From assembly GCA_028277345.1 (NCBI GenBank), contig JANQGM010000006.1:110535-174534 (forward strand): a DNA stretch of 64,000 nucleotides. Direction: 5' to 3'. Both the position numbers and the translations under genes were made by a program. Positions within the stretch are counted from its first letter, which is position 1. Each line of letters opens with the position of its first letter. This document shows positions 37,755 to 56,120 of this stretch, in pieces. The notes below the pieces were generated by a model. The model did not search any database. It had not been told where the DNA came from and saw nothing but the letters and a program-made list of their open reading frames with translations. This DNA is from Candidatus Bipolaricaulota bacterium. Lineage in GTDB: Bacteria; Bipolaricaulota; Bipolaricaulia; UBA7950; UBA9294.

Positions 37755-37859
37755 ATTGATGTCTCCCCCCACAGGTTCTTTGTGTGATTCTAGGTCAAGC
37801 GTGGACATGGTTCAATACGATTCTTCAGATAGATTCCGGCAATTCGAGCTAAGAACTGG

Positions 37860-38840: not shown

Positions 38841-38923
38841 GCGTGCTCCCTTCGGCTGGAAAACCCTGACTACGTATTATATCATCGAAATCAGCTTCGA
38901 GTGCCGCTGAAAGGAGCGACCAC

Positions 38924-39352: not shown

Positions 39353-39353
39353 T

Positions 39354-40091: not shown

Positions 40092-40178
40092 GTCGCTGCC
40101 TACGCAAGAACGGCCGTACGCGCCGCACTAGCTCTATAAGATGCGCAGTGGGAAGCCATCGTTCTACACGCATCCAAC

Positions 40179-40237
40179 ACGAGAAGCCTCCCATTCTTGC
40201 TTCTCGTCCTTACGCAAGATCAAAGGTCTTGCGTAGG
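40179..40237. terminator. two tandem hairpins between the convergent MBL and tdk genes
   Basis: ACGAGAAGC-11 nt-GCTTCTCGT (perfect 9 bp) and TACGCAAGA-loop-TCTTGCGTA. No clear U-tract, so efficiency is uncertain. Confidence 0.35.
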
Positions 40238-40239
40238 CT

Positions 40240-40833
40240 CTAGCCAGGGACATAGCAGTTACGGCATCGGGCTTCGTAGCTGCCCACACCGCCGACTTGA
40301 ATCGTCGGCCCATCCTTGGGCGCTGGCACGCCATCGATCAATCGCTGCGATCGCGTGGCCACGCCGCCGCATTTCACGCACACCGCATGAAGCTTGTCCA
40401 CACGATCCGAAAGGCTCATCAGAGGGCCCATCGGCCCGAACGGCTCTTCGGCAAAGGTGAGATCGAGCCCCGCCACGATGACACGTTTCCCCATCGCCAC
40501 AAGATCCTGGCACAGTTGGGTGAGCTTCTCACCGAAGAAATTGCCTTCATCAAAGGCGATGACCGAGGCCTTGGCCAGCTGCTCCTCACCAACGATTGAG
40601 ATCAGCGTCTCAATCGTCTCTTTTCCTGGAGGCAGTTCGTGAGCCGCGAACTCGCGGCCGTAATGCGTCACGATTGCCTTGGCCGCATACCGATCGTCGA
40701 TCGTCGGCTTGAAGAGGAGGATGGTCCTTCCAGCGATGCGAACGCGCTCCAGGCGGCGAATGAGTTCTTCGGTTTTGCCCGAGAACATGCACCCCGTGAT
40801 GACCTCCAACTGCCGGTTGACCATGTGCAACAT
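40240..40833 (-). CDS. tdk: thymidine kinase
   Basis: GCMFSGKTEELIRR P-loop, FDEGNFF, zinc ribbon CVKCG...CRNC. Confidence 0.9.
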   Translation of the reverse strand: MLHMVNRQLEVITGCMFSGKTEELIRRLERVRIAGRTILLFKPTIDDRYAAKAIVTHYGREFAAHELPPGKETIETLISIVGEEQLAKASVIAFDEGNFFGEKLTQLCQDLVAMGKRVIVAGLDLTFAEEPFGPMGPLMSLSDRVDKLHAVCVKCGGVATRSQRLIDGVPAPKDGPTIQVGGVGSYEARCRNCYVPG

Positions 40834-40835
40834 GC

Positions 40836-41831
40836 CTACTCCTCCCCCATCTGCGGTAGTACGCCATCGGTATAAAGTTCGTCCAACTCGAACGCTTTTG
40901 TCATCAACTCATTCGCCAACAGGAACTGCTGCATCTCCGCCCAAACCGTCTCATCCGCGTGGAACGCACCGCGTGCGAAGAGCGGGACCGTGACATCGAA
41001 TGAGCGGCGATTCAGCGGATCATCGAGCTCCGGGAAGCGACCGAAGAAGATGCCAAGCGCATCCGCCGGATAATCGGTCGTCCACTCGATCGCGCGCGCG
41101 AGGGCTCGCAAGAAGCCCTCCGCTTCTGTTGTGCGGTCTTTCAGGAAGTTGGGATGCGTCACCAGAATGATCTCGTACGTCGTCGGCACGCAGAAGTCTT
41201 CTTGCGGAAAGAAGATGGGTTCAACCCCCAGCTCCTCCAGCTGCAGCACTTCATAGTTGCAGAAGGCGCCGACCGCATCAACATGGCCCGCCAATAGGGC
41301 CGTGATTGTGTTGAACCCTACGTTGATCAGGTTAACATCCGCCGCATCGATGCCCGCGCATTGCAGGACAGTCTCCCACAGAATGGGCTCCAGAGGCTCA
41401 AGCGCATACCCGATTCGCTTGCCTGCCAGATCGTCCAAAATGCCGACGCCCTCATCGCGAAGCGCCACCAACCCACCGAGCGGCCGGTCGATCAATGCAC
41501 CGATTGCGATCAGGGGCAAGCCTTCGGATCGGGCGATAAGGTAGTTGATCTGAGGCGTCAGAGCGATCTCCACCGCCCTTGCGGCGGCGAGCTTCACGGG
41601 ATCGGACGGATTGGCGGGAACGAAGATATCGATGCTCACACCTTCGTCTTCAAAGAACCCCTTCTCCAGCGCCACGTACAGCGGGACATGGTTAGGGTTG
41701 GCGAAGAAATCCAGACTCACGCGGATGGGAGCCGCCATGACGTGGCACGACACGGCCAAGACAAGAATCCCCCCCAGTAATCGGCAGATCAGCCGCAAAT
41801 CAGACCTCCTGAACGTCCTTTCGCGGAGCAC
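40836..41831 (-). CDS. ABC transporter substrate-binding protein, NMT1/THI5-like (NitT/TauT family)
   Basis: Signal anchor, then FFANPNHVPLYVALEKGFFEDEGV pattern typical of NMT1/THI5-like binding proteins. Confidence 0.8.
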   Translation of the reverse strand: MLRERTFRRSDLRLICRLLGGILVLAVSCHVMAAPIRVSLDFFANPNHVPLYVALEKGFFEDEGVSIDIFVPANPSDPVKLAAARAVEIALTPQINYLIARSEGLPLIAIGALIDRPLGGLVALRDEGVGILDDLAGKRIGYALEPLEPILWETVLQCAGIDAADVNLINVGFNTITALLAGHVDAVGAFCNYEVLQLEELGVEPIFFPQEDFCVPTTYEIILVTHPNFLKDRTTEAEGFLRALARAIEWTTDYPADALGIFFGRFPELDDPLNRRSFDVTVPLFARGAFHADETVWAEMQQFLLANELMTKAFELDELYTDGVLPQMGEE

Positions 41832-42576
41832 GCCAGTGCACCACCCGTCGTTCGATTATGCGGAGTAGGCCGAACAGCGACAACCCGAGAATCGCCAGCA
41901 TGAGAATGGCCGCGAACACCAAATCCATACGCAGCCGGGCATTCGACTGTAGCATCAGATAGCCGAGACCTTGGTGTGCTCCTACCCACTCCCCTATGGT
42001 CGCTCCGACAACGGCCAATGTGGCCGAGACCTTGAGTCCGGAAAACAACGTCGGCAGGCACGCGGGCCAGCGAAGCTTTCGAAAGATCTGTCCTCGCGTC
42101 GCTCCCAGAGAGCGAAAGAGATCGACGGACTCCTCCGTCGGCTCTCTGAGTCCGTCGGAGACATTAACCACGAGCGGGAAAAAGCTGATCAGTGCGGCCA
42201 CCGTCACCTTCGGCCACAGGCCGTACCCCATCCAAACGATCAGAATGGGAGCGATGGCGAAAACGGGAATCATCTGAGAACTGATGATCAGCGGATAGAG
42301 CGCCTTGTCCAACAGCGGCGAGTAGAAGACGGAAATGGCAAGTAGGATGCCGCCAATCGCGCCCAAGAGCAGGCCAACGACGATTTCAAGCAACGTCACC
42401 ACGCCGTGCCAACCCAGGAGCTGAATGTTGCTGATGAAGGCCAACGCGATCCGTGACGGCGCGGGAAGAATGAACGCGCGTACGTTGAAGCCGCGGACTC
42501 CGAGCTCCCAGGCAGCCAGCAGCAGAAGCAACAGCACAATCGGCGCCAGGATTCGCGTAAGCCGCCCGTTCATCAC
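41800..42576 (-). CDS. ABC transporter permease (NitT/TauT family)
   Basis: Six TM segments. EAA-like loop DLFRSLGATRGQIFRKLRWPACLP. Confidence 0.85.
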   Translation of the reverse strand: MMNGRLTRILAPIVLLLLLLAAWELGVRGFNVRAFILPAPSRIALAFISNIQLLGWHGVVTLLEIVVGLLLGAIGGILLAISVFYSPLLDKALYPLIISSQMIPVFAIAPILIVWMGYGLWPKVTVAALISFFPLVVNVSDGLREPTEESVDLFRSLGATRGQIFRKLRWPACLPTLFSGLKVSATLAVVGATIGEWVGAHQGLGYLMLQSNARLRMDLVFAAILMLAILGLSLFGLLRIIERRVVHWRAPRKDVQEV

Positions 42577-43331
42577 GCACCTCCGGAAACCAAGAGAAGA
42601 TCCAACAGAGCCGTTTTGCGTGCGACAAGGTCAGCCGAGCCTCGATCGCGGGGGCGAGGCAATTCGACGGCTTGATCTCGCTGAAGGCTCGCCGGTCGTT
42701 CCGAAAGCACGAGGACGCGATCGGAAAGCAGTAGCGCTTCTTCAGCATCGTGGGTGACAAGGAGAACGGTCTTACGCAACTCGCTCCACACCTCCAGCAG
42801 CCACGTTTGCAAGGTCGCCCGCGTCAATGGATCGAGTGCTCCCAGCGGTTCATCCAGCAGGAGGATCGGACGGTGCGCCAAAAACGTACGGATAAGGGCC
42901 AGCCGTTGCCGCATCCCTCCCGACAGCTGATGCGGATAGACAAACTCAAATCCCCCCAAACCGAAGTGCTCGAACAACTCGATGGCTTCACGCTTCGCCT
43001 CTTTCAGCGAACGCCCATCAATTTCCGACGCCAAGATGGCGTTCCCAAGTGCATCCCTCCAGGGCAAAAGCGTGTCGTGTTGAGGTAAATAGGCAATGGA
43101 GCCCAATTGTGGAACCTGCGCCCCATCGACCAGCACCGTTCCTGAATCCGCCCTCTCCAACCCAACGAGGATCTTGAGAAGCGTGGTCTTTCCACAACCG
43201 GACGGTCCGAGAATCGTCGTCCACGTTCCCCCCTCCAATGCGAAGGACAATCGATCCAATACGTGCACATTTATCCCACGCTGGCGATAGTGCTTGCTCA
43301 GATCGTGGACCTGAAGAAGAGAGGACGACAT
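42573..43331 (-). CDS. ABC transporter ATP-binding protein
   Basis: Walker A GPSGCGKTT, signature LSGGMRQRL, Walker B LLLDEPLGALD. Confidence 0.9.
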   Translation of the reverse strand: MSSSLLQVHDLSKHYRQRGINVHVLDRLSFALEGGTWTTILGPSGCGKTTLLKILVGLERADSGTVLVDGAQVPQLGSIAYLPQHDTLLPWRDALGNAILASEIDGRSLKEAKREAIELFEHFGLGGFEFVYPHQLSGGMRQRLALIRTFLAHRPILLLDEPLGALDPLTRATLQTWLLEVWSELRKTVLLVTHDAEEALLLSDRVLVLSERPASLQRDQAVELPRPRDRGSADLVARKTALLDLLLVSGGA

Positions 43332-43386
43332 CGCTTCACTCCTTTAGTGAGATGCTGCACACATGGTAGCGCACCCATCTCCATCA

Positions 43387-43421
43387 CCAAACAAACCGCA
43401 GCACAGTCGCCTGTGCTGCGG
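43387..43421 (-). terminator. rho-independent terminator (perfect 11-bp stem, GCGA loop, T-run)
   Basis: Minus strand CCGCAGCACAG-GCGA-CTGTGCTGCGG-TTTGTTTGG. Lies 55-90 nt upstream of the ABC operon ATG and directly after a GGACCACCA tRNA-end-like stub. Confidence 0.7.
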
Positions 43422-44134
43422 TGGTGGTCCATAGTGGATGCCCTTTGTACCGCACCCATGCCGAGGTTGCCAGTTCATACGTAGTTGGGGAAGGGGCTTA
43501 GGACCATTCCACAACACGCGCAGATACTACTACTCAATGCCCCAACCTCGCATGTCAGAACAGTACGAGGTAAGTGCTCACTACGTGCGATGGCTTGGCG
43601 TCATCTGCATCCTGGGAACAGGTCAATTGCCCAGAAAGCGGTTCATTGGGGACAACCGATTAGCCAAAACCTCCCCAGCGGAAGCCAAATCCCGCGTGAA
43701 TACTCTGGCTGCACTGGAGTTGGTCTCCAGACAAGACACCTATCGACTGACCATCGATGTTGGTGTGGGACTGTAGCGCCCGGTCCTGCGGCAAAGCGGT
43801 GTAATGCAAGTGACGACGCCTATGCAATAAACGATCAATGCGAACGGCAACAATCCCCAGGAGCTGAGTCTGCTCCGTGCAGGCCATTCATCAGGCCAAG
43901 ATTGCATTTGGGGAGCCGGGGGAGTGGCTCGCCAAACAAGCGATCGATAAACGCACCTTCAATTCGTCACCCAAAGCCATCAACATCTCATAGCCAGCCG
44001 ATTGCTCTGTGAGATGGCCGGGGCACTACGGGTGGGGTAGTGTTGCCAATTGCACCGCCATTACTTCCCGCCCGCGTTTCGGGCTGGCGCATTGGTTTCT
44101 GTGCATGGCGGGTTCGAATCTCCGATTCGCGAAT

Positions 44135-45793
44135 TCATTTCCTTGTAGCCGTCAAGATCAAAGCTAGATTGTTGACTCTTATGATCTGTTGGTCCCTCGC
44201 AAATCCCGAGAAGAAGCCCTGCAGTGCCCGAGATGAAAACTGCTCAGACCTCAGTCCTTCTTTCGCCAGAATGGTTCTTTTGTCATCAAGAAGGAACGGG
44301 TGAAGATCCACGTCTCGGTAGCTTGCTCGCCGGATTGATAGCGCATCCTCCGAGTCGTTGTACACACTAACAATCAATCTACCACCGGGCTTTAACACCC
44401 GCTTGATCTCGTCAGCCACCTTGCGCTTGACAGAATCCTCCCCCAGATTGCCAAACGTATTGGTCATGCACACGACTAGATCAAATGAATCAGTCGCAAA
44501 GGATGTTTTCTGGGCATCTTCAAGTCGAAATCCTACTTTCTTTCCGTGTTTCTCGTACATAGGTTGAAACCGACGTGCCATCACCCAGTTTGTATCGATC
44601 CCTTGCACGTCTTCAACTCCCCCGTCAACCAATATCTCCATGTGTCGACCCCAACCACAACCAATGTCTAGGGCCGCTGTTACCGTTCCTAATTTCGCCA
44701 ACTCATCTTTCAGCACACGTTCCTCTTCCTTGCGCCACTCCAAGAGCTTCGTGTTCTTGGGCACTATCTCCTCTACCCACTTCTTGAAGAAATCGAGAGA
44801 GAAGAAATCCGTATCGCCTGGTGTTCCAACGGGAATCGTAGTACCGATAGTTGAGGTGTAATTCCGCCACAGGGTTCCTTGATCGACGTGCTTGCAAATG
44901 AGCTGATATACTTCTCGCGCCAGTTCCCTTGGCATCCTATCTTTCGTATCACATGGGTTCTCTCTCTCATACCACCAGAGGTGCTCATCTTCTTCAACGG
45001 TCATGTTAATGAGAAGGAAGTCTGGGAATGGAACACTGTAAACATCGTCTGGGGTACTGCGGCGCATCCAGTCGCCGAGTCTACTCATCCTGCTCATAGC
45101 AGGCTTCTCATCAAGAATGCTTTGATTTAGGCGCTTAGAGAGATTCTTGAGCTTCTCCCTGTCAGAGTTGCTCAGTTTGCGGACCAATCGCTCACGTACA
45201 ATCGGAATGCAGTGAACTCGGGCGATCGCGTGCATCTGGATGAGCGCCAAGATCTCTGTTTCGTGTTCTGCATATGCGTCTTCTGTGTAGATCAGGAGCC
45301 TGAGAGCTGAAAAGCTCGGATCAATCTCCCCCTGAGCAATCCGTCTGACCATCTGCAATCCCGAGGCTTGGAACACTCGATTGTCATGCTCATCTGTGCT
45401 GAACTCGATTCCCCCATGCTGAATCCCGTATTCGATTATATGCTTCACGTCGTTCAGTGTTAGGTAGTACATGAAGGTCGGACTTCGCCACAAAGCTATC
45501 TCCTTGCTCGAGATTGCGAAGTAGTTGTAGCCAGCCTTCACGATTGCATCATCGAATGCGTTGACCCGTCGAGGAACTTCAGGCTGAGGTAGAGGCGGGA
45601 TGAACAAAAGCACTACAACGAGATGAGAGAGAAACACACTGACCACGCCAAACAGAAACTGGAAAATCCACCAAGCTGACGAGTATGTCTGCAAAAGTGC
45701 TGAGCCAGTAATGGGTCCCGCAATGACGGAAATCCCTAATCCCACTAGGAAGGATATAATGTAGTCTTTTCGCGTAACGTTGTACCGATTCAC
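44135..45793 (-). CDS. membrane protein with unassigned central region and C-terminal class I SAM methyltransferase domain
   Basis: Two N-terminal TM helices. About 250 aa without a recognisable motif. C-terminal ALDIGCGWGRHMEIL, FDLVVCMTNTFGNL, LKPGGRLIV. Confidence 0.7.
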   Translation of the reverse strand: MNRYNVTRKDYIISFLVGLGISVIAGPITGSALLQTYSSAWWIFQFLFGVVSVFLSHLVVVLLFIPPLPQPEVPRRVNAFDDAIVKAGYNYFAISSKEIALWRSPTFMYYLTLNDVKHIIEYGIQHGGIEFSTDEHDNRVFQASGLQMVRRIAQGEIDPSFSALRLLIYTEDAYAEHETEILALIQMHAIARVHCIPIVRERLVRKLSNSDREKLKNLSKRLNQSILDEKPAMSRMSRLGDWMRRSTPDDVYSVPFPDFLLINMTVEEDEHLWWYERENPCDTKDRMPRELAREVYQLICKHVDQGTLWRNYTSTIGTTIPVGTPGDTDFFSLDFFKKWVEEIVPKNTKLLEWRKEEERVLKDELAKLGTVTAALDIGCGWGRHMEILVDGGVEDVQGIDTNWVMARRFQPMYEKHGKKVGFRLEDAQKTSFATDSFDLVVCMTNTFGNLGEDSVKRKVADEIKRVLKPGGRLIVSVYNDSEDALSIRRASYRDVDLHPFLLDDKRTILAKEGLRSEQFSSRALQGFFSGFARDQQIIRVNNLALILTATRK

Positions 45794-46011
45794 TGATCCC
45801 TCCTCAACTACGTCCTCACGTTTTCATCATACTTCAGAAAAACCGTAGCGCCAACGAGCAAAAACGCTTCATGCCCCAATGCTAGAGTGGTCGCCAGCAC
45901 GGTTTATCTTGCCCACGAGACAACTGGATTGGGATCAGCAAAAACGCGATCATCCTCTGATCTACATCGACATGCATGACAGCACAGCTAAGGATCTTGG
46001 TTAGCAGGTCC

Positions 46012-46476
46012 TCATTTCGGCACAATCGCGCGCTTCATCATTTCCTCGAATCTGTGCTCCAGGGCCGCTGGCCAATTGGACGCAGACCGGATTCTCTCAA
46101 TATACGGATATAGAGGAACTGCCGATGATCCGGCAGCTTCCAAAGCTGTTAGAGCAACTTCGATTTCGTCAGATACGCCCGAAGAGAGCCTGATAGCCTG
46201 TCTCAGGAAGTAGAGCAAGCTGCTCCCTGAATCTGCATCATCGACCACAAGAGATTCAACAGCAAGACATACGGCGACATCGACAAGTGCGAGCTGGGAG
46301 CGAAACAAACGCTCCATAGCACTACTCGCCTTGTCAAGTTTGCCCGTCAGGCGGGAATCAATGCGCGACTCCACAGTTCGTGCGAGATATGCTAGGTATC
46401 CGCCCAAAACGGAAACCAGTAGCGTTAGCACCGTAAGCAATACTGTTAGTATTCCGACTATTACTTCAGGGTCCAT
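46012..46476 (-). CDS. hypothetical single-pass membrane protein
   Basis: N-terminal TM helix (IVGILTVLLTVLTLLVSVLGGYL), then a helical soluble part. Overlaps the receiver gene by 11 nt. Confidence 0.5.
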   Translation of the reverse strand: MDPEVIVGILTVLLTVLTLLVSVLGGYLAYLARTVESRIDSRLTGKLDKASSAMERLFRSQLALVDVAVCLAVESLVVDDADSGSSLLYFLRQAIRLSSGVSDEIEVALTALEAAGSSAVPLYPYIERIRSASNWPAALEHRFEEMMKRAIVPK

Positions 46477-46903
46477 TCTTGATAACCTCCTCGACGGATT
46501 TCAGAGAAAGAGGCTTTCGGAGGATATGGACATCAGATCGTTCGGCCATCGCATCAACTTGAGGCTCATCTCTCCAATTGGTTATGAGAACAGTCTTCGG
46601 CAATCCGTTCTTCGCAATTTGCTCATCAGATCGCACTACTTCCAATAGCCGAAGACCAGTGTAGCGACCATCTGCTGTCTCTTCCAGATCAAAAACCTTG
46701 CCAGGCGGCAACATCACATCGATGAAGATGACCCCATAGGATTCCCACATGAGCTTCTCGATTGCCTCCGCTGGAGTCCTTACATAGTCCACTTCATGTC
46801 CAGAAAGCTTTAGATGAGTGATTGCTGCATCAACGGTCATGAAATCATCGTCCACAAACAGGATTCTCAAATCACCGACTCCTCTTTCCGATCTCAAGCT
46901 CAA
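46466..46903 (-). CDS. stand-alone response-regulator receiver domain protein
   Basis: ILFVDDD...VIFIDVMLPPG (phospho-acceptor Asp context)...TNW...LRKP. 145 aa, no output domain. Confidence 0.8.
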   Translation of the reverse strand: MSLRSERGVGDLRILFVDDDFMTVDAAITHLKLSGHEVDYVRTPAEAIEKLMWESYGVIFIDVMLPPGKVFDLEETADGRYTGLRLLEVVRSDEQIAKNGLPKTVLITNWRDEPQVDAMAERSDVHILRKPLSLKSVEEVIKNGP

Positions 46904-48098
46904 AGACAGTCAAATCGCCAGTCTCATCAAGCAACCTCACACGTCCCCCCAATCGTTGGGCAATACCCCTGCACACGCTAAGACCAATTCCCATTCCTCT
47001 GGAGTCCCGCCGCTTTGCCTCCTCCCCTCGATAGCGAGGCTCGAAAATGCGAAAACGGTCCTCCCCCTCGATTGGCAGACCTCGGTTTCTTACTCCGACC
47101 CTATAATTCTCTTTGTCATCGACGTTTCCATAAACCTCAATTGTCGTATTGTCATCTGCATACTTAATAGCATTCGACAGCAGATTGAATAAGAGGAATC
47201 GCAAGAGCTCGGGATCAGTGTTCACCTTGCCGCAGTTTCTGACTTCATCGTAGCGAAAAGAAAGATTCTTCTGTTCTGCTTCGTGGTACCAAAGATGAGT
47301 TATGGGCATAAGCAGATCATAGAGGCTCTCTTCGCTCAGGTGAGCCTCAATCTCCTGTGGCCCACCAAACGCAAGACGATATTGGTGCAATCGGTTGATT
47401 AGGAGTTCGGCTACGAGGCGTAAATCCTCAAGCTTCATTCTCTTTTGGTCCTCCGTTACACGATTGGAGCTTAGGTACTCAAGCAAGAAATCGCTGTTTG
47501 AATAAATGAAGTCGAGAGGAGAAGCGAGCTCATGAACAGCGCGCTCCCAGTCTTCAGCCTTCGTTGATTGCTCCTCTCGCAACACCGCAAGAAAGAGACG
47601 CTCGGAAACACGTCGAAGAACAGTCCGCCGCTCACTAGAGAAGACCCATTCCTCGGAGTTGGATGCAAGAGCTTCCACAAATACGATGCTGTTGTGACTA
47701 TCGCAACGATAAAGAGCAATACCGAATTGCCCTACGGGATGGTTGCCGAATACTGCGCGAAGTTGCCTAGCTACGGGCTGATCACCTGAATCCGAAAACG
47801 TGTGGATCGCAGTTTCTCCTATTCCTTCGTAGAGTTCTATCCAGCCTTTGTTGAAAGAGAGGTGCCCTTCAGCTATGCGTTTCAGGATATCCCTCTGCAA
47901 CCCACAATGTGCAATTACCCTGATGCGCTTGTCCACATCATGGCAATGAGCTATCAGGTAATGACAACAATAGCTTCTCTCCGATCGAATGCGCTTCAGC
48001 TCATCGCCCAAAAGCTTCCTTAGTGCCTGCAGTTGAAGTTGCTGAGTGGCCACGTTTTTGAGCTTCAGAATTGTTGTTAGCATGATCTCAGCGAGCAC
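46872..48098 (-). CDS. cytoplasmic sensor histidine kinase
   Basis: H-box AVHELASPL, N-box LLSNAIKYA, G-boxes RNRGLPI...GMGIGLSVCRGIA. N-terminal about 190 aa GAF-like, no TM helices. Confidence 0.85.
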   Translation of the reverse strand: MLAEIMLTTILKLKNVATQQLQLQALRKLLGDELKRIRSERSYCCHYLIAHCHDVDKRIRVIAHCGLQRDILKRIAEGHLSFNKGWIELYEGIGETAIHTFSDSGDQPVARQLRAVFGNHPVGQFGIALYRCDSHNSIVFVEALASNSEEWVFSSERRTVLRRVSERLFLAVLREEQSTKAEDWERAVHELASPLDFIYSNSDFLLEYLSSNRVTEDQKRMKLEDLRLVAELLINRLHQYRLAFGGPQEIEAHLSEESLYDLLMPITHLWYHEAEQKNLSFRYDEVRNCGKVNTDPELLRFLLFNLLSNAIKYADDNTTIEVYGNVDDKENYRVGVRNRGLPIEGEDRFRIFEPRYRGEEAKRRDSRGMGIGLSVCRGIAQRLGGRVRLLDETGDLTVFELEIGKRSR

Positions 48099-48330
48099 CT
48101 TATCGCATTTGCCGCTACAAAGAAAAGCAAAATGTTAGTCCCCTTGTCGCCATTTCACCATCAGACAGAACGCCGCCCTAACGATGCTCAACCTTGTGCA
48201 AAGTCTTCGAAGTGGATTCACGGATAGCTTCGCCATCCACAACACGCGTTGAAATACGTGCGACGAATGGGAGAGCTCTGGGTTTAGCACGACCTTCAAT
48301 CACGCAGCATAGACTATTCATTCAGACCTA

Positions 48331-49098
48331 CTAGCCAGCCTTCGAAGCTAAATTCTGTCCAAAGAAGTAACCAAGTATGAGCAAGAAAGCACTGGTCACG
48401 ATTTCTGTGGGCTGAGTTTGAGTGAACATCGCGTAGAGAAGTGAACCACCCATTGCGAGGAGTAAGACCATCCCAACAACTGATGCGATCATCGGGCGAC
48501 TCAAGTATCCGCTCCACAGATTTAATCTGCTCTCTCGCTCCATGATCCGACTCATCAACTCCCTTTCTTGAATCGAAAGTGCCGACTTCAGCTGCTCCTC
48601 GCTGGTTTGCTCTGCCTCGCGAGCAAGCTCCTCACTGCGAAGTACAAGTTCTTTCACGCGATCCTTCAGCTCTTGCGAAGCAGAGACATCCTTGAATCCT
48701 TCCTGGAGATCTTCAACTAGCTTATCGACGCTTTTCGAGTAGTTCTGAGTCTCTAGGGTTCTTATGCGCTCGATGCAGAGCTTCTTTCGTTCAAGAAGGA
48801 GAGGCATGATCCCAATCTCTTCCCTGGAACCAACTGAAGTTGACGCCCCAAGTGTGCCGACCGACAAAGTGGCACCCCTCGTGAATCCTCCAAATTGCTC
48901 GGGGTGTTGGAGTGCATCGTTGAGCCTGTCGAGCGTGTGCGTGAGTTCCTCAAGAGACTGAGTCTTGATTCCGTCTTCAGAGAAGCCCAAACGATCAATG
49001 ATTTCCTCAAAGTGCCTCTCCAAGTCAGCAGAGTAACCAGCGGAGTAATCTCCCAGCCAAGCTGGCCTCTTCTTCTTCTTTTTCTTCTTCATTACCAT
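48331..49098 (-). CDS. hypothetical coiled-coil protein with two C-terminal TM helices
   Basis: N-terminus MVMKKKKKKKRP, long charged helical region, C-terminal hydrophobic pair (IASVVGMVLLLAMGG..., AFLLILGYFFG). Confidence 0.55.
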   Translation of the reverse strand: MVMKKKKKKKRPAWLGDYSAGYSADLERHFEEIIDRLGFSEDGIKTQSLEELTHTLDRLNDALQHPEQFGGFTRGATLSVGTLGASTSVGSREEIGIMPLLLERKKLCIERIRTLETQNYSKSVDKLVEDLQEGFKDVSASQELKDRVKELVLRSEELAREAEQTSEEQLKSALSIQERELMSRIMERESRLNLWSGYLSRPMIASVVGMVLLLAMGGSLLYAMFTQTQPTEIVTSAFLLILGYFFGQNLASKAG

Positions 49099-49682
49099 GT
49101 ATCAGCACTCCTCTTCTGACCAAAGATATTTGTAAGTAGGGCAATTATACCGTGTGTGCGAATCCTACAGTAAAACACATGGCTTGCGAGCGAACACACC
49201 GTTCTTGTTGATCCAATCCCTGCGCTTCTCCCCGGCAATTGATTCATGTAGCAATCGACGCATTTCACTATTTCCACCAATCCTGCAATTTCCTCCATCC
49301 ATCAGCCTTTTGAGAGCGTTGATGCGTCTCTGGCGTTGGCCATATCGCAGTTCCCTTGCAACTTTTTGCTGACACCAAGACGATCATGCAATCAAATCCT
49401 GGAGGTGTATCGTGGCAATAACGCAAAACCTTGCTTCGGAGTTCGAACTAACTGAGGACCAGATAGCCAGCCTTATCCACCTTGCAAACTCATTTCAGGA
49501 TCGAGTAATCCTTTGCCTGCTTCTGCATGTATCGAAGCATGTAACTGAGCAAGGAGACCTGAAATATGGACACCATTCCGGAACTAGGCATACCAGGCTA
49601 ACGAGACACTCTAAGGCTGTAGAGAAGCTATGTTTCTGATATAATACCGTTAGGGTGATTCAGAATAATTGAAAAGCGCCTG

Positions 49683-50081
49683 TTGAGATTTGGAGCAATT
49701 GCCTTGCTCTCTCTCATCGTCGTCTTTCTATCTTCTTGTAGTCTCTTCCCACCACCACTGGATGTAACAGGAAGATGGAGTGGCAGTCTCATCGTAAACA
49801 GCGTCGCATTCCCCATGGAGCTAGACCTGGTCCAAACCGGGATCTCACTAACAGGACATATGAACGTAAGGCCATATGAGTACACTCGCGCGATTCCAAT
49901 TCAGTCCGGATCCATTGATCAGAAAGCTAAAACAGTATTCATTAAGACCGAACAACACTATGAGGAGGGGGGAATGGCTCAGTTTACCCTGTATGGTGAT
50001 TGCAGTGCCGATGATTATATGTCTGGCACAGGAATCGCAGCCTCTGGAGTAGCCGTCACATGGTACGCTTCCCATCCATAA
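49683..50081 (+). CDS. hypothetical lipoprotein
   Basis: Signal peptide with lipobox FLSSCS. 132 aa, no recognised family. Confidence 0.5.
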   Translation: MRFGAIALLSLIVVFLSSCSLFPPPLDVTGRWSGSLIVNSVAFPMELDLVQTGISLTGHMNVRPYEYTRAIPIQSGSIDQKAKTVFIKTEQHYEEGGMAQFTLYGDCSADDYMSGTGIAASGVAVTWYASHP

Positions 50082-50340
50082 TACGCATTGTTCTACAAGG
50101 AAGCAGAGAGTAGTCAGCATCGTGTTTCTGTATGTCTTCTGCTTGCCCTGATGAAAGTCAGTTTTTCATCGCTACTGAAAGGAGGGTTTCGCCAATCTCC
50201 CAGTTGATCGCTTCTAGACTTCGCCTATTCTGCGTCCTACATTGCCCTCGTACTTCGCCAGATCACGATAATGGGATGCGAAGTTGGTTAATACTCTGGC
50301 TTTGAACTTCGATGCCATCAGCGAAAGTATAGTCCCTACC

Positions 50341-50374
50341 TACAGAAACGTCTTCAGCGAAATTGCTGAAGGCG
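50341..50374 (-). terminator. hairpin plus T-rich tail following tRNA-Glu
   Basis: Minus strand CGCCTTCAGC-AATTTC-GCTGAAGACG, followed by TTTCTGT. Begins 14 nt after the tRNA CCA end. Confidence 0.45.
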
Positions 50375-50387
50375 TCAGGTGTGCGTG

Positions 50388-50463
50388 TGGTGGTCCCAGG
50401 GGGATTTGAACCCCCGTCGACGGGATGAGAGCCCGCTATCCTAGGCCACTAGACGATGGGACC
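50388..50463 (-). tRNA. tRNA-Glu (anticodon CUC), CCA encoded
   Basis: Hand-folded cloverleaf: acceptor GGTCCCA/TGGGACC, anticodon stem GCGGG/CCCGT, loop CTCTCAT, T arm GGGGG-TTCAAAT-CCCCC, discriminator A plus CCA. Confidence 0.95.
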
Positions 50464-50540
50464 ATATCTACATCGAATTATCTCCAACGAACCTAACATC
50501 CTCAAGGCAACCAGCACAAAAGGATAGAGGTTCGCCGCGA

Positions 50541-50810
50541 CTACTCGCTCGCTGGCTTATTGGCCTTACGCGTCTCGATGATGTCCTTAGCCGCAGCGAT
50601 TGAGGCGACAAGTTCATCGTAGAACTCTACGGGAATGGCAATTCCCTTGCGCGTTGGCTTCCATTCGCCATTCTCATCTTCGTAGTAGTTGCGAATGTCA
50701 AGGTAATCGCGATCCTTGAACTCCGAGATGCGCACATGGATGCGGTTCCCTAGCGTCTTGTCGATTGCTTGAACGAGGATTTCTTCCCCTTGGATGTTTT
50801 CGTTCGCCAT
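50541..50810 (-). CDS. PC4/p15-like (YdbC-type) ssDNA-binding protein
   Basis: 89 aa. RIHVRISEFKDRDYLDIRNYYEDENGEWKPTRKGIAIPVEFYDEL matches the bacterial PC4-like pattern. Confidence 0.7.
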   Translation of the reverse strand: MANENIQGEEILVQAIDKTLGNRIHVRISEFKDRDYLDIRNYYEDENGEWKPTRKGIAIPVEFYDELVASIAAAKDIIETRKANKPASE

Positions 50811-51112
50811 GTCGTTCTCCTTTCCAAACTAAGCCGAACCTATATGATTACTTCTTCTGTTACAAGTAGTTGTGTGTTTCAGGCCGCCCGCAAACTAGAA
50901 CGTCGCCTGGCTGAGAAGTGTACTCAAAATCCCATTTCTCACCAGATTCTGCGGTCACGTGATTGAAAGAGAAGCTGTGACACGGTCCTCTGAACGAGAC
51001 AGCATCACAGCGATGTGTAATCCAGCCTCAAGGGCAATCTGGAATTAGAGATCCTCGCGAAAGTTGATCCATCCCGTGGAGAGCACCTACAATGCCACCT
51101 CAAGGGGGGAAA

Positions 51113-52306
51113 ATGGGGTTCATCCGCCTGGCGTGCACATTCCTTGTTATCATCATCCTGTCAATCTGCGTTTTCGCTGACAGCAATATCGACCCCGTTG
51201 ACAAGTGGGCGTGGGGAACCAATATCGGTTGGATCAACTTCGCGCCACAAAACGGCGGCGTCTGCGTCTATCGCGATCACCTTGAAGGCTATGCTTGGGG
51301 CGAGAACGTCGGCTGGATTCGGATGGGTACGTACGAAGGCGGGGACGAACACACCTACGAGAATTCGGCCCCCACCAACTACGGTGTCAACCGGGATCAC
51401 AACGGATTCCTATCCGGGTATGCGTGGGGCACGAACATCGGCTGGATCAACTTCGCCCCTGAGCATGGAGGCGTTCGCATTAATCCTCAGACGAATGAGT
51501 TTGAGGGAGACGCTTGGGGAGAAAACGTTGGATGGATTCGATTCAAGGGAGACGGCTATCTCGTCCTCTTTACCGGCTTCCCGCCCGTACCCATTCCTCC
51601 CAGCGGCTCGGGCTCGAATCTGCTACCCATCCCGGATGCTGGGCCGGATCAGACTGTCTGCGTGGGCGAACGAGCGATCCTCGATGGGAGCCGCTCGCAT
51701 GATGGAGAAGCGGCAGCACCTGCCACCGCTCTCCACGCTCAAAACGTCTCGAACCTCGAATCGGATCTTAGTTACCGCTGGACCTTTTCCATTCGTTACA
51801 TGGCAGCGGGAGTCCCCGTCTACATGATCCCTGGAGGCAGCAACTGCTTCGCGTCGTGTCGGGGTTTCGATCAGCCGATCGCCTCGTTCATCCCGGATGT
51901 GGAGGGCGACTACACGCTGACGTTGTACGTCACCGATGTGGGTGGCGAGACCACGTTCGATCAAACCGTTGTTACCGCCGTGTTCGACCCAGCCTTCATC
52001 CCAGAGGAACCTGACTCAGAATCCCTGGATGTTGAACAGATCGTCTGTTTCCCCAATCCGTTTTCCGGCCAGATCTCGTTCGGCTTCGTCGGAACGGGAA
52101 CGCCGGATCAAATCGATGTCTCCGTCTTCGATCTCTGCGGCCATCCCGTCTGGCAAGGCAGCATCTCTGACGCCACGCATCTGCTTTGGGACGGCACGGC
52201 ACCATCCGGAGACCGTCTTCCGAACGGAGGCTACATCTGCATCGTGGTCATCCGTGGGAACGGCACTATCACCTCTGAGAAAGCCGTCGTCGTCATTCGC
52301 CGCTAG
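51113..52306 (+). CDS. secreted repeat protein: 4x AWGxNxGWI repeats, PKD-like segment, T9SS/FlgD-Ig-like C-terminal domain
   Basis: Signal anchor. Repeats at aa 38-152 of the track ORF. DAGPDQTV...LDGSRSHD. C-terminal CFPNPFSGQISF...LPNGGYICIV. Start at ATG 51113 (AAGGGGGGAAA upstream). Confidence 0.7.
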   Translation: MGFIRLACTFLVIIILSICVFADSNIDPVDKWAWGTNIGWINFAPQNGGVCVYRDHLEGYAWGENVGWIRMGTYEGGDEHTYENSAPTNYGVNRDHNGFLSGYAWGTNIGWINFAPEHGGVRINPQTNEFEGDAWGENVGWIRFKGDGYLVLFTGFPPVPIPPSGSGSNLLPIPDAGPDQTVCVGERAILDGSRSHDGEAAAPATALHAQNVSNLESDLSYRWTFSIRYMAAGVPVYMIPGGSNCFASCRGFDQPIASFIPDVEGDYTLTLYVTDVGGETTFDQTVVTAVFDPAFIPEEPDSESLDVEQIVCFPNPFSGQISFGFVGTGTPDQIDVSVFDLCGHPVWQGSISDATHLLWDGTAPSGDRLPNGGYICIVVIRGNGTITSEKAVVVIRR

Positions 52307-52314
52307 GAGGTCCC

Positions 52315-53058
52315 ATGCAAGCTCGCAAATCCTTGATCGCTGTGCTGATTCTATTCGTCTTCGCCGTCGGCCTCTTCGCTGGCCGGCAGCTCGTCAAGAT
52401 GGGGAACACCAATTCGCCATCTATGCCGGAAACCACCGAATCCTACACTCTCGAAGACGTGTACAACCGACTCGACAAAGGAGCTCCGGGAACAGCCACA
52501 TCGTTCGTCGAACCGGCTTCAGGACCGGATACAGGAACAATGCACACAATCGATGACATCATGGAGCTAGCAGGCACAGCGTGCACACAGTGCAACCCGC
52601 CAAGCGAACTGTCTGAGAATTACCGTTGGTGCGACAACAAAGATGGAACAGTCACCGATATGTCAACGGGCCTCATCTGGTTGAAGAAAGCAGATTGGGG
52701 AGGCGCGCAGGCGTGGGATGATTTGTTGGGGAACCAACCCGCGCGGGATCGAGTGAAGATATTAGGAGCTGAACTCGCCTCAGCCGAGCTCAGCGATGGA
52801 TCAGAGGCAGGGGATTGGAGACTTCCGACGCGCAGAGAGCTCAACACGTTGGGAAACGGAACGGAGCCAGTTCGGGCAAGCAATCCACGTTTCTTTACAG
52901 GCCTTCCGGGTGAATCTAGCTTCGAGTACTGGTCCAACACCCCGTATGCCGAAGATGCGGATCGAGCTTGGTTCGCTAGACCCATGCAAGGAACAAGCAA
53001 CCACGCCCCTGTAAACATGACTTTCGAGGTTTGGCCTGTTCGCAGCAAAACGCCTTGA
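52315..53058 (+). CDS. DUF1566 (Lcl C-terminal domain) protein
   Basis: DGTVTDMSTGLIWLKKADW, WRLPTRRELNTL, YWSNT motifs. N-terminal signal anchor. Confidence 0.75.
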   Translation: MQARKSLIAVLILFVFAVGLFAGRQLVKMGNTNSPSMPETTESYTLEDVYNRLDKGAPGTATSFVEPASGPDTGTMHTIDDIMELAGTACTQCNPPSELSENYRWCDNKDGTVTDMSTGLIWLKKADWGGAQAWDDLLGNQPARDRVKILGAELASAELSDGSEAGDWRLPTRRELNTLGNGTEPVRASNPRFFTGLPGESSFEYWSNTPYAEDADRAWFARPMQGTSNHAPVNMTFEVWPVRSKTP

Positions 53059-53080
53059 CCTCACAGCAACAAGGAGAAAA

Positions 53081-53740: not shown

Positions 53741-53970
53741 CTATTAATCACCTCAAGTATGGATTTTCCATTGCGGATAGCCCGTGACGCATCAGGAAAG
53801 CGAGATAAAGTAAAAAGCCAGGACAAGATGCGGACGCCGCTCTTCTGTGTTCTTGCTTCGCCTTCGAAATCAGCTTTCATTCTACGCGAACCCAGCATCC
53901 ATCCGCGATCCTAGCTAAAAAGGACTAAGGTGCTCAGAACCGCTTCATGTACCTACCGCATGCTGCAAGG

Positions 53971-56114: not shown

Positions 56115-56120
56115 TGTCTT

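What the first reader, a model, noticed from the sequence alone, without database searches (positions are those of the whole stretch)
43387..50463. About 7-kb island apparently integrated into the 3' end of tRNA-Glu, leaving the old tRNA stub and its terminator 7 kb away
On the minus strand the ABC-operon leader reads GGACCACCA. It is followed immediately by a perfect 11-bp stem with a GCGA loop and then TTTGTTT. GGACCACCA(C) is identical to the end of the tRNA-Glu gene: acceptor 3' strand, discriminator A and the encoded CCA. On the plus strand this is GTGGTGGTCC at both 43421-43430 and 50387-50396, and the next 12 nt match at about half their positions. tRNA-Ile in this window shows the same layout of 3' end, 6 nt, hairpin and T-run.
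The simplest reading is that tRNA-Glu once ended at 43430 with this terminator. An element then integrated into its 3' end and supplied a new 3' end at 50388. The old stub plus terminator was left as the distal att scar. The enclosed DNA looks AT-richer. It contains 0.7 kb without ORFs, unusual genes and a possible integrase scrap 0.75 kb from the tRNA.
Caveat: the exact repeat is only 10 bp and could be chance.
Basis: partly seen in the sequence, partly recalled or inferred. Interest (0 to 1): 0.65.

Follow-up and report, generated by a model that had tools for sequence, protein, structure and literature searches.

The report
Integrase-less island in tRNA-Glu gene
A 7-kb piece of foreign DNA was inserted precisely into the end of a tRNA-Glu gene in an uncultivated Bipolaricaulota bacterium, pushing the gene's old tail and terminator 7 kb away; this is a clean but ordinary genomic island, unusual only in carrying no recognisable integrase.

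Summary

- **Insertion:** window 43431-50386 (6,956 bp) lies between tRNA-Glu(CTC) and that gene's original terminator. It is bounded by a direct repeat, GGACCACCAC, which is the tRNA 3' end.
- **Empty sites:** in five related Bipolaricaulota lineages the same tRNA-Glu is followed directly by the orthologous GCAGCAC hairpin and the same ABC operon.
- **A second insert:** a sixth lineage carries a different 4.5-kb insert at the same point.
- **Composition:** the segment is the most deviant 7 kb of the window (GC 0.50 vs 0.57-0.58; GC3 0.52 vs 0.63-0.69).
- **Likely polymorphism:** independent metagenome assemblies, 100% identical to the window, break exactly at both repeat copies. This fits occupied and empty alleles coexisting.
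- **No integrase:** no integrase, transposase, phage or conjugation gene was found.
- **Cargo:** a histidine kinase, a receiver-only regulator, small membrane proteins and a rare membrane-anchored methyltransferase.

Best reading: a decayed, or trans-dependent (CIME-like), integrative islet from site-specific recombination at the tRNA 3' end. It is a known kind of feature, of modest interest.

The parts
50388..50463 (-). tRNA-Glu(CTC), intact, with encoded CCA. It is the regenerated target gene (attL side).
   Evidence: ARAGORN; Rfam RF00005 at 60.5 bits; 76/76 identical to the tRNA-Glu of relatives L054, L057 and L058.
50477..50505 (-). Promoter-like site (TTGAGG-17-GATAAT) just upstream of tRNA-Glu.
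   Evidence: Consensus scan. Similar cTTGATGG...GATAAT boxes precede tRNA-Glu in relatives. Function is inferred.
50387..50396 (-). Copy of the direct repeat GGACCACCAC on the tRNA side: acceptor 3' strand, discriminator A, CCA and one further C. The crossover lies somewhere within it.
   Evidence: The C after CCA is also present in four of the five empty-site relatives.
50342..50375 (-). Hairpin plus T-rich tail supplied by the island. It is the replacement terminator-like element for tRNA-Glu.
   Evidence: Terminator-like hit, stem 50352-50371 with tail ACGTTTCTGT; -17.4 kcal/mol, z -3.0. Function is inferred.
43431..50386 (.). Inserted segment (island body), 6,956 bp.
   Evidence: Absent from the orthologous site in five related lineages. 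GC 0.496 and the top tetranucleotide deviation in the window. GC3 0.515. It forms its own assembly unitig, L004 = window 43401-50416, 100% identical, seen in 3 samples.
49683..50081 (+). 132-aa ORF with a lipoprotein-type N-terminus (…LSSC…); no family match.
   Evidence: Translation; no Pfam, PADLOC or PHROGs hit. A gene was called here independently. The lipoprotein reading comes from the sequence only.
49412..49639 (+). It has a faint look of tyrosine-recombinase box I/II, which is not supported.
   Evidence: PDB phmmer: XerC-like 4a8e at E=0.4, behind FocB at E=0.28. No Pfam or PHROGs integrase at E<=10. No homologue in the large protein database.
48331..49098 (-). 255-aa orphan protein: poly-Lys N-terminus, predicted helical middle part, hydrophobic C-terminus.
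   Evidence: Translation; no Pfam or PHROGs family.
46872..48098 (-). Histidine kinase, about 403-408 aa, with an H-box (HELASPL) and an HATPase_c domain.
   Evidence: Pfam HATPase_c at 1.4e-17; phrog_857 at 1.9e-31; H-box read from the translation.
46466..46903 (-). Receiver-only response regulator, 145 aa. It overlaps the kinase gene by 32 nt.
   Evidence: Pfam Response_reg at 1.4e-07, 32.1 bits against a cut-off of 30.2.
46012..46476 (-). 154-aa orphan protein with an N-terminal hydrophobic helix. It overlaps the regulator gene by 11 nt.
   Evidence: Translation; no family hit.
44135..45793 (-). 552-aa protein: two N-terminal membrane helices, a rare uncharacterised middle domain and a C-terminal class I SAM methyltransferase.
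   Evidence: Pfam Methyltransf_25 at 2.7e-17. Only 9 full-length homologues, from scattered phyla. The middle domain occurs in 66 clusters out of 1.84 billion. AlphaFold model pLDDT 81.7; only the methyltransferase fold matches the PDB. The middle domain has no significant fold match.
43431..44134 (.). 0.7-kb stretch at the distal end of the island with no credible gene, GC 0.54-0.56.
   Evidence: No gene called. Six-frame Pfam scan empty at E<=1. Rfam empty. GC profile.
43421..43430 (-). Displaced tRNA-Glu 3' stub, GGACCACCAC (attR side).
   Evidence: It is exactly where Logan contigs L001 and L002 begin.
43385..43422 (-). Original tRNA-Glu terminator: 12-pair hairpin, GCGA loop and TTTGTTTGG tail.
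   Evidence: It is orthologous to the hairpin that directly follows tRNA-Glu in L054, L055, L057, L144 and L147.
42573..43331 (-). First gene of the flanking ABC operon (NitT/TauT-type ATPase). It is the core-genome landmark on the distal side.
   Evidence: Pfam ABC_tran. Conserved synteny ABC-TK-...-recA in all relatives.
50541..50810 (-). PC4-like gene, the core-genome landmark on the tRNA side.
   Evidence: Pfam PC4 at 7.1e-18. A PC4 gene precedes tRNA-Glu in L054, L057, L141, L144 and L147.

Best explanation
Window 43431-50386 is a horizontally acquired islet inserted into the extreme 3' end of the tRNA-Glu(CTC) gene of a Candidatus Bipolaricaulota genome.

Shown:
- The ancestral arrangement was PC4 - tRNA-Glu - terminator hairpin - ABC operon.
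- The 6,956-bp segment now separates the tRNA from its original terminator.
- The last 10 nt of the gene region (GGACCACCAC) are present at both junctions in direct orientation.
- The tRNA is intact.
- The incoming DNA brought a new hairpin plus T-tail right after it.
- The ABC operon keeps its own upstream region.

Inferred:
- The insertion was made by a site-specific (tyrosine-type) integrase. It recombined an element-borne attP, containing an imperfect copy of the tRNA 3' end, with the chromosomal tRNA 3' end. This corresponds to the 'asymmetric 3'-end sublocation' of tDNA integration. The crossover lay inside CCACCAC.
- The integration module has since been lost, or was never on the element. 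What remains is an att-flanked cargo block, that is, a CIME-like or decayed integrative element.
- The population sampled in the metagenomes probably still contains both occupied and empty alleles.
- The cargo is a small two-component signalling module (kinase plus receiver-only regulator), membrane proteins and a rare membrane-anchored SAM methyltransferase. Its biological role is unknown.
For: 1. Empty sites. Five related lineages (ATPase 68-72% identical) have tRNA-Glu(CTC) directly followed by the orthologous GCAGCAC hairpin and the ABC operon. The window's reconstructed empty site aligns collinearly with them.
2. Repeat. GGACCACCAC occurs twice against 0.12 expected, and 15/19 nt match when extended. 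It sits exactly at the tRNA end and exactly in front of the orthologous terminator.
3. Composition. GC is 0.496 against 0.585 and 0.566, with the highest tetranucleotide deviation in the window. GC3 is 0.515 against 0.692 and 0.631.
4. Assembly graph. Logan contig L004 equals window 43401-50416, that is, the island plus 30 nt (k-1) at each end, and was seen in 3 samples. L001 and L002, from two samples, start exactly at 43430 and share that 30-mer. All are 100% identical to the window, and the 30-mer is unique in the window. A node with two predecessors at exactly this base is what a coexisting tRNA-hairpin (empty) allele predicts.
5. Hotspot. L141-L143 carry a different 4.5-kb insert at the same point. 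It holds one 1,419-aa gene and has GC 0.571 against 0.62-0.63 in the flanks. The stub CCACCAG sits before the old hairpin. The G after CCA is native in relative L147.
6. Cargo. It is rare and phylogenetically patchy. Homologues of the 552-aa protein sit in variable or defence-type neighbourhoods.
7. Literature. A regenerated tDNA plus a displaced fragment is the accepted signature of integrase-mediated islands (PMC4383910). Att-flanked elements that have lost their integration genes are known as CIMEs (PMC5704250). A 3'-end sublocation is described (bioRxiv 10.1101/2020.11.02.365908, citing Williams 2002).
Against: - No integrase, excisionase, transposase, relaxase or phage gene was detected. 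This covers the island ORFs (Pfam, PADLOC, PHROGs) and six-frame translations of its two gene-poor ends. The second insert, L141, also lacks one. Integrase involvement is therefore inferred only from the junction anatomy.
- The exact repeat is short, 10 nt (6 nt in L141), at the low end for tDNA islands.
- No attP or circular form was found. L004 runs 20 nt past the core without branching, and the attP junction is absent from IMG/VR.
- The exact empty junction of this species was not found in JGI metagenome contigs. The same-species empty allele is therefore inferred from contig ends, not seen.
- On an unrooted ATPase tree, the window and L141 lineages are each other's nearest neighbours on long branches. 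A single older event with later cargo replacement cannot be excluded.
Confidence: 0.75

Rival explanations
1. The islet is a still-mobile satellite without a recombinase. It is excised and integrated in trans by an integrase encoded elsewhere in the genome or by a co-resident element. On this reading it is a functional cis-mobilizable element rather than a dead remnant.
For: Both att copies are intact and identical. Presence/absence polymorphism is inferred in the population. Two unrelated recombinase-less inserts occupy the same site. CIMEs mobilised by related elements are documented (PMC5704250).
Against: No integrase was found in the 20 other window ORFs scanned. The L004 unitig does not branch at its own core copy, so there is no sign of an attP or circular junction. 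Polymorphism can equally come from ancestral variation or homologous recombination of the flanks.
Confidence: 0.12
2. The insertion did not involve a site-specific recombinase. Foreign DNA was captured at the tRNA 3' end by illegitimate or microhomology-mediated recombination, or by some tRNA-end-directed process. The 6-10 nt repeat is the microhomology.
For: The repeats are very short, 10 nt here and 6 nt in L141. No recombinase is present in either insert. The L141 insert is essentially one gene, with no room for a lost integration module.
Against: Two independent events fell within the same about 7 nt of the same tRNA gene. Both regenerated a perfect tRNA and supplied a new hairpin directly after it. 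That is the hallmark of attP x attB recombination and is not expected from random microhomology joins. The repeat also extends as an imperfect tRNA-like 19-mer on the island side.
Confidence: 0.08
3. There is no insertion. The 10-mer is a chance match or the remnant of an old tandem tRNA-Glu duplication, and the 7 kb is ordinary lineage-specific DNA.
For: The exact repeat is only 10 nt.
Against: Expected copies are 0.12. The stub abuts the hairpin that follows tRNA-Glu in five relatives. Those relatives have a single tRNA-Glu and no 7-kb segment. The segment is compositionally deviant. Assembly unitigs break at both repeat copies.
Confidence: 0.02
4. It is an assembly artefact: the island contig was wrongly joined into the tRNA-Glu/ABC junction through the short repeat.
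For: The region is a branch point in de Bruijn assemblies.
Against: The repeat (10 nt) is shorter than k = 31. L004 contains 30 nt of unique flank on each side, so k-mers spanning both junctions exist in the reads of three samples. They match the window's independent 174.9-kb contig exactly.
Confidence: 0.02

Closest known systems
tDNA-integrated genomic islands made by tyrosine integrases (Reiter 1989; Williams 2002; Islander database, PMC4383910), 3'-end sublocation
   Same: An intact, regenerated tRNA gene lies at one end and a displaced 3' fragment in direct orientation at the other. The cargo is foreign in composition and absent from relatives. The same tDNA is used more than once. The crossover lies at the asymmetric 3' end including CCA.
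   Different: No integrase gene lies inside the island, and Islander requires one. The identity block is very short (10 nt exact, 15/19 extended). There are no phage, conjugation or replication genes.
CIMEs (cis-mobilizable elements) and decayed ICE/IME remnants (PMC5704250)
   Same: It is flanked by attL and attR and lacks integration and transfer genes. It sits in the 3' end of a tRNA gene.
   Different: No parent ICE or IME and no cognate integrase is known. Mobilisation in cis is untested. The host phylum (Bipolaricaulota) has no described conjugative elements that I know of (my own knowledge, not tested).
Cargo and degenerate elements left next to island tRNAs in Prochlorococcus (tycheposon study, bioRxiv 10.1101/2020.12.28.424599)
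   Same: A streamlined uncultured or environmental lineage with a variable islet beside a tRNA, partial tRNA copies, and most island material lacking an active element.
   Different: Tycheposons themselves carry integrase and replication modules, and none is seen here. This is a single small islet rather than a large composite island.
Insertion sequences and transposons
   Same: A discrete inserted DNA with a short direct repeat at both ends.
   Different: There is no transposase and no terminal inverted repeats. The repeat is the functional end of the tRNA rather than an arbitrary target duplication.

Membership tests
tDNA-integrated genomic island (Islander-type, tyrosine integrase) | Intact tRNA/tmRNA gene at one boundary, regenerated by island sequence | tested here: met
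   tRNA-Glu(CTC) at 50388-50463 is intact and 76/76 identical to relatives.
tDNA-integrated genomic island (Islander-type, tyrosine integrase) | Displaced fragment of the same tDNA, in the same orientation, at the other boundary | tested here: met
   GGACCACCAC at 43421-43430, 10/10 exact and 15/19 extended, on the same strand. The fragment is short.
tDNA-integrated genomic island (Islander-type, tyrosine integrase) | Tyrosine-recombinase integrase gene inside the island | tested here: not met
   No Phage_integrase or other recombinase in the ORFs or in six-frame translations of the gene-poor ends. The 75-aa ORF is not significant.
tDNA-integrated genomic island (Islander-type, tyrosine integrase) | Orthologous site unoccupied in related genomes | tested here: met
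   Five lineages have tRNA-Glu directly followed by the hairpin and the ABC operon.
tDNA-integrated genomic island (Islander-type, tyrosine integrase) | Anomalous composition relative to the host | tested here: met
   GC 0.496 against 0.57-0.58, top tetranucleotide deviation, GC3 0.515 against 0.63-0.69.
tDNA-integrated genomic island (Islander-type, tyrosine integrase) | Excision to a circular form with attP, restoring attB | not testable with these tools
   Raw reads cannot be searched. There is only indirect evidence for attB (contig ends) and none for attP.
CIME / decayed integrative element | attL and attR retained | tested here: met
   Identical 10-nt cores at both ends.
CIME / decayed integrative element | Integration and transfer genes absent | tested here: met
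   Pfam, PHROGs and PADLOC scans found none.
CIME / decayed integrative element | Derived from, or mobilisable by, a related integrase-bearing element using the same att site | not testable with these tools
   No integrase-bearing element at tRNA-Glu(CTC) was found among the relatives examined. IMG/VR holds no contig with this tRNA 3' end.
Prophage / ICE / IME | Capsid or terminase genes, or relaxase, coupling protein or T4SS genes | tested here: not met
   No such PHROGs or Pfam families. No DNA similarity to phage or plasmid records.
IS / transposon | Transposase and terminal inverted repeats | tested here: not met
   No transposase domain. No inverted repeat pairs the two island ends.
Intrinsic (rho-independent) terminator, for both hairpins | GC-rich stem-loop followed by a T-run, placed directly after the gene | tested here: met
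   Pattern scan and folding. Termination activity itself is not testable here.

The most novel reading that the evidence does not exclude
The CCA end of tRNA-Glu(CTC) in Bipolaricaulota may be a recurrent target of an insertion route that needs no element-encoded integrase. The route could be a chromosomally encoded or otherwise unrecognised recombinase acting in trans, or a tRNA-3'-end-directed capture mechanism. Two unrelated inserts with no recombinase share a crossover within CCACCA(C): 6,956 bp with six genes here, and 4.5 kb with a single 1,419-aa gene in L141. Each arrives with its own terminator-like hairpin. Several relatives also carry stacked promoter plus 5'-tRNA-fragment units upstream of the same gene, which suggests the gene is recombinationally active at both ends.
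Probability: 0.1. Interest if true: 0.6.

Novelty: new member of a known kind. Interest (0 to 1): 0.3.

Why it matters
This is a precisely mapped horizontal-transfer event, to the nucleotide and with empty-site controls, in Bipolaricaulota. That phylum is uncultivated and almost nothing is known about its mobile DNA.

It shows three things:
- tRNA-Glu(CTC) is an insertion hotspot in this lineage.
- The site is probably polymorphic within a natural population.
- Cargo can persist there without any recognisable integration gene.

Practically, it gives defined attL, attR and attB sequences that can be looked for in reads. It also flags a rare membrane-anchored methyltransferase family that travels with accessory DNA. 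It does not change what is known about how tDNA islands work.

Tried and rejected
- Exact empty-junction pattern CTGGGACCACCACCGCAGCACAG in JGI metagenome contigs: 0 hits.
- GTDB representative genomes searched with the ABC ATPase: the best hit was only 45% identical, so no useful relatives.
The scan was wasted.
- attP junction, the tRNA-Glu 3' end and the 552-aa protein in IMG/VR: nothing.
- Integrase remnant:
  - Six-frame Pfam of 49090-50387 and 43431-44140: none.
  - A direct DNA-reference attempt failed on stop codons.
  - The 75-aa ORF and a stop-free 120-aa pseudo-protein: nothing in Pfam or PHROGs at E<=10.
  - The pseudo-protein matched only itself in the big protein database (one search was a parameter error).
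  - A regex hunt for integrases in the fetched loci, to build my own profile, found none.
- PADLOC: only domain-level hits (methyltransferase to mad2, kinase ATPase domain to PDC-M43B). I rejected these as evidence for a defence system.
- Rfam on 42.5-51.5 kb: only the tRNA.
- blastn and tblastx of the island against all fetched loci and the rest of the window: only the methyltransferase homologues, and no similarity to the L141 insert.
- Plasmid and phage collections: no DNA match.
- Structure of the 552-aa protein's middle domain: a confident model (pTM 0.83) but no significant PDB match. A weak enrichment of PLD-like folds (E>=0.5) was noted and not used. A profile search against PDB sequences was empty.
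- Repeat of the tRNA-Ile 3' end, to test a second island: none found.
- Williams 2002 could not be read because it is not held. The sublocation concept is cited through a paper that summarises it.

Full report

Yes. ARAGORN finds tRNA-Glu(CTC) at 50388-50463 on the minus strand, and tRNA-Ile(GAT) at 56121-56194. Rfam confirms the tRNA at 60.5 bits.

On the plus strand, GTGGTGGTCC lies at 43421-43430 and 50387-50396. On the minus strand this is GGACCACCAC: the acceptor 3' strand, discriminator A, an encoded CCA and one more C. These are the only two copies in the 64 kb. Shuffles expect 0.12 copies, and 0 of 100 shuffles reached 2. Extended without gaps, the two sites match at 15 of 19 positions (D11).

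The copy at 43430 is followed at once by a 12-pair hairpin with a GCGA loop and TTTGTTTGG. Its energy is -27.3 kcal/mol, z -4.6, and it is flagged terminator-like. tRNA-Ile has the same gene-spacer-hairpin-T-run layout.

**2. Is the enclosed DNA different?**

Yes.
- GC of 43431-50386 is 0.496, against 0.585 for 30001-43430 and 0.566 for 50387-64000.
- Among all sliding windows of that size, those centred on the island have the largest tetranucleotide distance from the whole window, 0.283-0.287.
- Third-position GC of the six island genes is 0.515 +/- 0.04. It is 0.692 +/- 0.07 for 17 genes to the left and 0.631 +/- 0.06 for 11 genes to the right.

**3. Whose genome is this, and what do relatives look like?**

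The flanking ABC ATPase (42573-43331) has homologues at 68-76% identity. Where they carry a name, they are called Candidatus Bipolaricaulota. No close relative is among the GTDB representative genomes.

I looked up the contigs that encode six of these homologues. All share the window's gene order: RF - tRNA-Ile - ... - PC4 - tRNA-Glu - ABC operon - thymidine kinase - ... - recA.

Five lineages have tRNA-Glu(CTC) followed directly by a hairpin on the same GCAGCAC...GTGCTGC core, a T-run, and the ATPase start 90-120 nt later:

| Lineage | Locus | Sequence after the tRNA |
|---|---|---|
| P0019 | L054 | ...GGGACCACCA-CTT-GCAGCACAGG-TTTC-TGTGCTGC-TTTGCTTTTG |
| P0038 | L055/L056 | same layout |
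| P0044 | L057/L058 | ...GGGACCACCA-CTC-GCAGCACG-AAGT-CGTGCTGCG-TTTCTCTTTTG |
| P0043 | L144/L145 | same layout |
| P0010 | L147-L154 (eight places shown) | same layout |

The tRNA is 73-76/76 identical to the window's.

I then joined the window's tRNA to the sequence that starts at the stub. The result aligns collinearly with these native sites. The alignment runs through the hairpin, a conserved GCTACCAT box (probably the ABC -10 element, 43363-43370), the AAGGAG ribosome-binding site and the start codon.

The hairpin at 43395-43422 is therefore the original tRNA-Glu terminator. The 10 nt before it are the original end of the gene region.

**4. Independent support from assembly graphs**

Three kinds of Logan (k = 31) contigs are 100% identical to the window.
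- L001 (15.9 kb, SRR20820740) and L002 (SRR20820733) carry the ABC operon. Both begin exactly at window 43430, with GGACCACCACCGCAG....
- L004 (7,016 bp, seen in 3 samples) equals window 43401-50416 exactly. That is the island plus 30 nt (k-1) of flank at each end.
- The last 30 nt of L004 are the first 30 nt of L001 and L002, and that 30-mer is unique in the window.

In a de Bruijn graph, a contig ends at a (k-1)-mer with two predecessors or two successors. The 30-mer that begins at the stub must therefore be preceded by something other than the island's T in those samples. An allele in which tRNA-Glu (...CTG) runs straight into GGACCACCACCGCAG predicts exactly this break. It also predicts the matching break after the tRNA's copy of the core.

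The hairpin sequence is species-specific, because relatives differ in it. A co-occurring relative therefore cannot explain the left break.

L004 runs 20 nt past its own core copy without branching. An attP (circular) junction is thus not present at assembler-visible coverage.

I take this as good but indirect evidence for presence/absence polymorphism, at about 0.7. I could not search reads, and the exact empty junction is not in JGI contigs.

By contrast, Logan contig L142, from the lineage with the other insert, reads straight through tRNA, insert and ABC operon.

**5. A second insert at the same point**

L141 is from NCBI assembly GCA_963679985.1; L142 and L143 are Logan contigs of the same lineage.
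- After PC4, tRNA-Glu ends ...GGGACCACCAC and is followed by CTAGAC... and a new hairpin (-24.8 kcal/mol).
- Next come 4.5 kb holding a single 1,419-aa gene on the opposite strand. Its only Pfam hit is 3keto-disac_hyd.
- Then comes ...GCAAG-CCACCA-G-CCGCAGCAC-AAACACA-CGTGCTGCGG-TTTTCTCTT, and the ABC ATPase follows.
- The insert has GC 0.571 against 0.62-0.63 in the flanks.
- It shares no similarity with the window's island.
- The G after CCA in its stub is the native base in relative L147. The stub is therefore old attB sequence, and the crossover lay within CCACCA.

tRNA-Glu(CTC) is thus used at least twice, within the same few nucleotides.

One caution applies. On an unrooted NJ tree of the ATPase, the window and this lineage pair on long branches. 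One older event followed by cargo replacement is not excluded.

**6. What the island carries**

All main genes are on the minus strand, the same direction as the tRNA and the ABC operon.
- A 255-aa orphan (48331-49098).
- A histidine kinase with an H-box and HATPase_c (46872-48098).
- A receiver-only response regulator (46466-46903).
- A 154-aa orphan with a hydrophobic N-terminus (46012-46476).
- A 552-aa protein (44135-45793) with two N-terminal membrane helices, an uncharacterised middle domain and a C-terminal class I SAM methyltransferase.

The kinase, regulator and 154-aa genes overlap each other. Near the tRNA, on the plus strand, lie a 132-aa lipoprotein-like ORF and a 75-aa ORF. The distal 0.7 kb (43431-44134) has no gene.

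The 552-aa protein is rare.
- It has nine full-length homologues at 33-47% identity in 5.8 billion proteins. They come from Thermoplasmatales, Dehalococcoidia and Deltaproteobacteria MAGs.
- Its middle domain is found in 66 of 1.84 billion representative clusters, mostly in the same architecture.
- One homologue sits next to a restriction-modification pair and a KAP NTPase (L059). Another lies in a variable stretch with a toxin-antitoxin pair (L060).
- The AlphaFold model (pLDDT 81.7) matches the PDB only through the methyltransferase fold, of small-molecule type.
- The middle domain modelled alone (pTM 0.83) has no significant match. Weak hits at E>=0.5 lean towards PLD-like folds, and I do not rely on them.
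- PADLOC hits are domain-level only.

The cargo's role is unknown. I would guess a membrane-associated sensing and modification module, at low confidence.

**7. Mobility genes**

None were found.
- Pfam, PHROGs and PADLOC on all island ORFs give no integrase, excisionase, transposase, relaxase or phage protein.
- Six-frame translations of the two gene-poor ends are empty at E<=1.
- No terminal inverted repeats pair the ends.
- There is no DNA similarity to plasmid or phage records.

By eye it recalls box I (LTEDQIASL...DRVILCLLL) and box II (L.RHS.A) of tyrosine recombinases. PDB phmmer does list a XerC-like protein (4a8e), but at E=0.4 and behind an unrelated protein at E=0.28. Pfam and PHROGs find no integrase at E<=10, even after stops are removed. 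The large protein database returns only the ORF itself. I treat it as unsupported rather than disproved.

Twenty further ORFs in the lower-GC parts of the window also lack an integrase.

**8. How it most likely works**

Shown: an insertion of foreign DNA exactly at the tRNA 3' end. The end of the gene is duplicated, the tRNA is perfectly preserved, the incoming DNA supplies a new hairpin after the tRNA, and the old terminator and the ABC upstream region are preserved.

Inferred: this anatomy is the accepted signature of attP x attB recombination by a tyrosine integrase at a tDNA (PMC4383910). Here it would be at the asymmetric 3'-end sublocation (summarised in bioRxiv 10.1101/2020.11.02.365908). 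The imperfect 19-nt tRNA-like sequence on the island side fits an attP that carried a diverged copy of the tRNA end.

No integrase remains. The element is therefore a decayed remnant, or an att-flanked element dependent on an integrase in trans, that is, a CIME (PMC5704250). Similar decay next to island tRNAs is described for Prochlorococcus (bioRxiv 10.1101/2020.12.28.424599).

My estimates:

| Reading | Probability |
|---|---|
| Insertion at the tRNA end | about 0.93 |
| Integrase-mediated origin | about 0.7 |
| Dead remnant vs trans-mobilised | about 5:1 |
| Non-integrase capture route | about 0.08 |

**9. Novelty and verdict**

This is a textbook kind of feature, a tRNA-associated genomic islet, resolved to the nucleotide in a phylum where mobile DNA is essentially undescribed.

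It fails the operational definition of an Islander-type island, which requires an integrase inside. It fits the known category of att-flanked, integrase-less remnants. I rate it a new member of a known kind, with interest about 0.3.

The most novel reading still open is a recombinase-independent or trans-acting route targeting the CCA end of tRNA-Glu. I give that about 0.1.

Noticed in passing
L054 2420-2690; L141 5090-5283; L147 3790-4160: Upstream of tRNA-Glu(CTC), several relatives carry one or two tandem units. Each unit has its own promoter-like box (cTTGATGG-N17-GATAAT), the first 10-16 nt of the tRNA (GGTCCCATCGTCTAGT) and then non-tRNA sequence with a conserved stem (GAGCCAC...GTGGCTGTCCTGGGG). 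Neither ARAGORN nor Rfam calls them tRNA. The window has none: only 77 nt separate PC4 from the tRNA. They could be scars of recombination at the 5' or D-loop side of the gene, or small RNA genes.
   Followed up: partly
L144 9560-9790; L054 2300-2370; L147 3710-3775: A different repeated unit of about 110 nt (CGTCTAGTT[A/G]GGGAGTGGATAACCC...GGGTTGTCC, able to form a hairpin) lies between PC4 and tRNA-Glu. There are two copies in L144 and one each in L054 and L147. No Rfam family matches it.
   Followed up: partly
window 50900-55000: There is a second variable segment between PC4 and the CapK-like gene and tRNA-Ile. It holds a 404-aa protein, two Lcl_C-domain proteins and a 232-aa orphan, with local GC down to 0.49. 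The tRNA-Ile to PC4 distance is 5.3 kb here, 2.95 kb in L057 and 0.75 kb in L141. No repeat of the tRNA-Ile 3' end was found.
   Followed up: partly
window 50787-50816: Logan contig L003 starts at 50787, inside the 5' end of the PC4 gene. The window's exact PC4 protein is not on record in the contig collection. This suggests another strain-level branch point close to the tRNA, as expected if a co-occurring strain differs here.
   Followed up: no
window 1630-2874 and 17353-18585: Two AAA_14 + DUF4143 ATPase genes bracket the lower-GC stretch at 1-18 kb (GC 0.49-0.56 against about 0.59 further on). That stretch holds acetyltransferases, methyltransferase, ABC-2 transporter and amidohydrolase genes. 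It may be another accessory region.
   Followed up: no
window 37860-40091, equivalent to L001 3340-5571 and present in all relatives: A conserved trio lies next to recA in every Bipolaricaulota relative examined: a cNMP-binding protein, a metallo-beta-lactamase-fold protein hitting the Anti-Pycsar Apyc1 family, and a guanylate/adenylate cyclase. It appears to be a core cyclic-nucleotide module rather than a phage anti-defence gene.
   Followed up: no
window 50388-50390 vs 56121: tRNA-Glu(CTC) encodes its CCA end, here and in all relatives. tRNA-Ile(GAT) in the same window does not: it ends ...GGCCCA and is followed by AAG.
   Followed up: no
window 55048-56175 (+): The longest ORF for the CapK-like/AMP-binding gene runs 55 nt into tRNA-Ile on the opposite strand, so its stop-proximal end or its frame is probably over-extended. 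The Pfam match covers only residues 151-277.
   Followed up: no
L059 273-6788: The closest longer-context homologue of the island's 552-aa methyltransferase fusion sits directly upstream of an N6/N4 DNA methyltransferase, an MvaI/BcnI-type restriction endonuclease and a 970-aa KAP NTPase. This is a defence-island-like neighbourhood.
   Followed up: no
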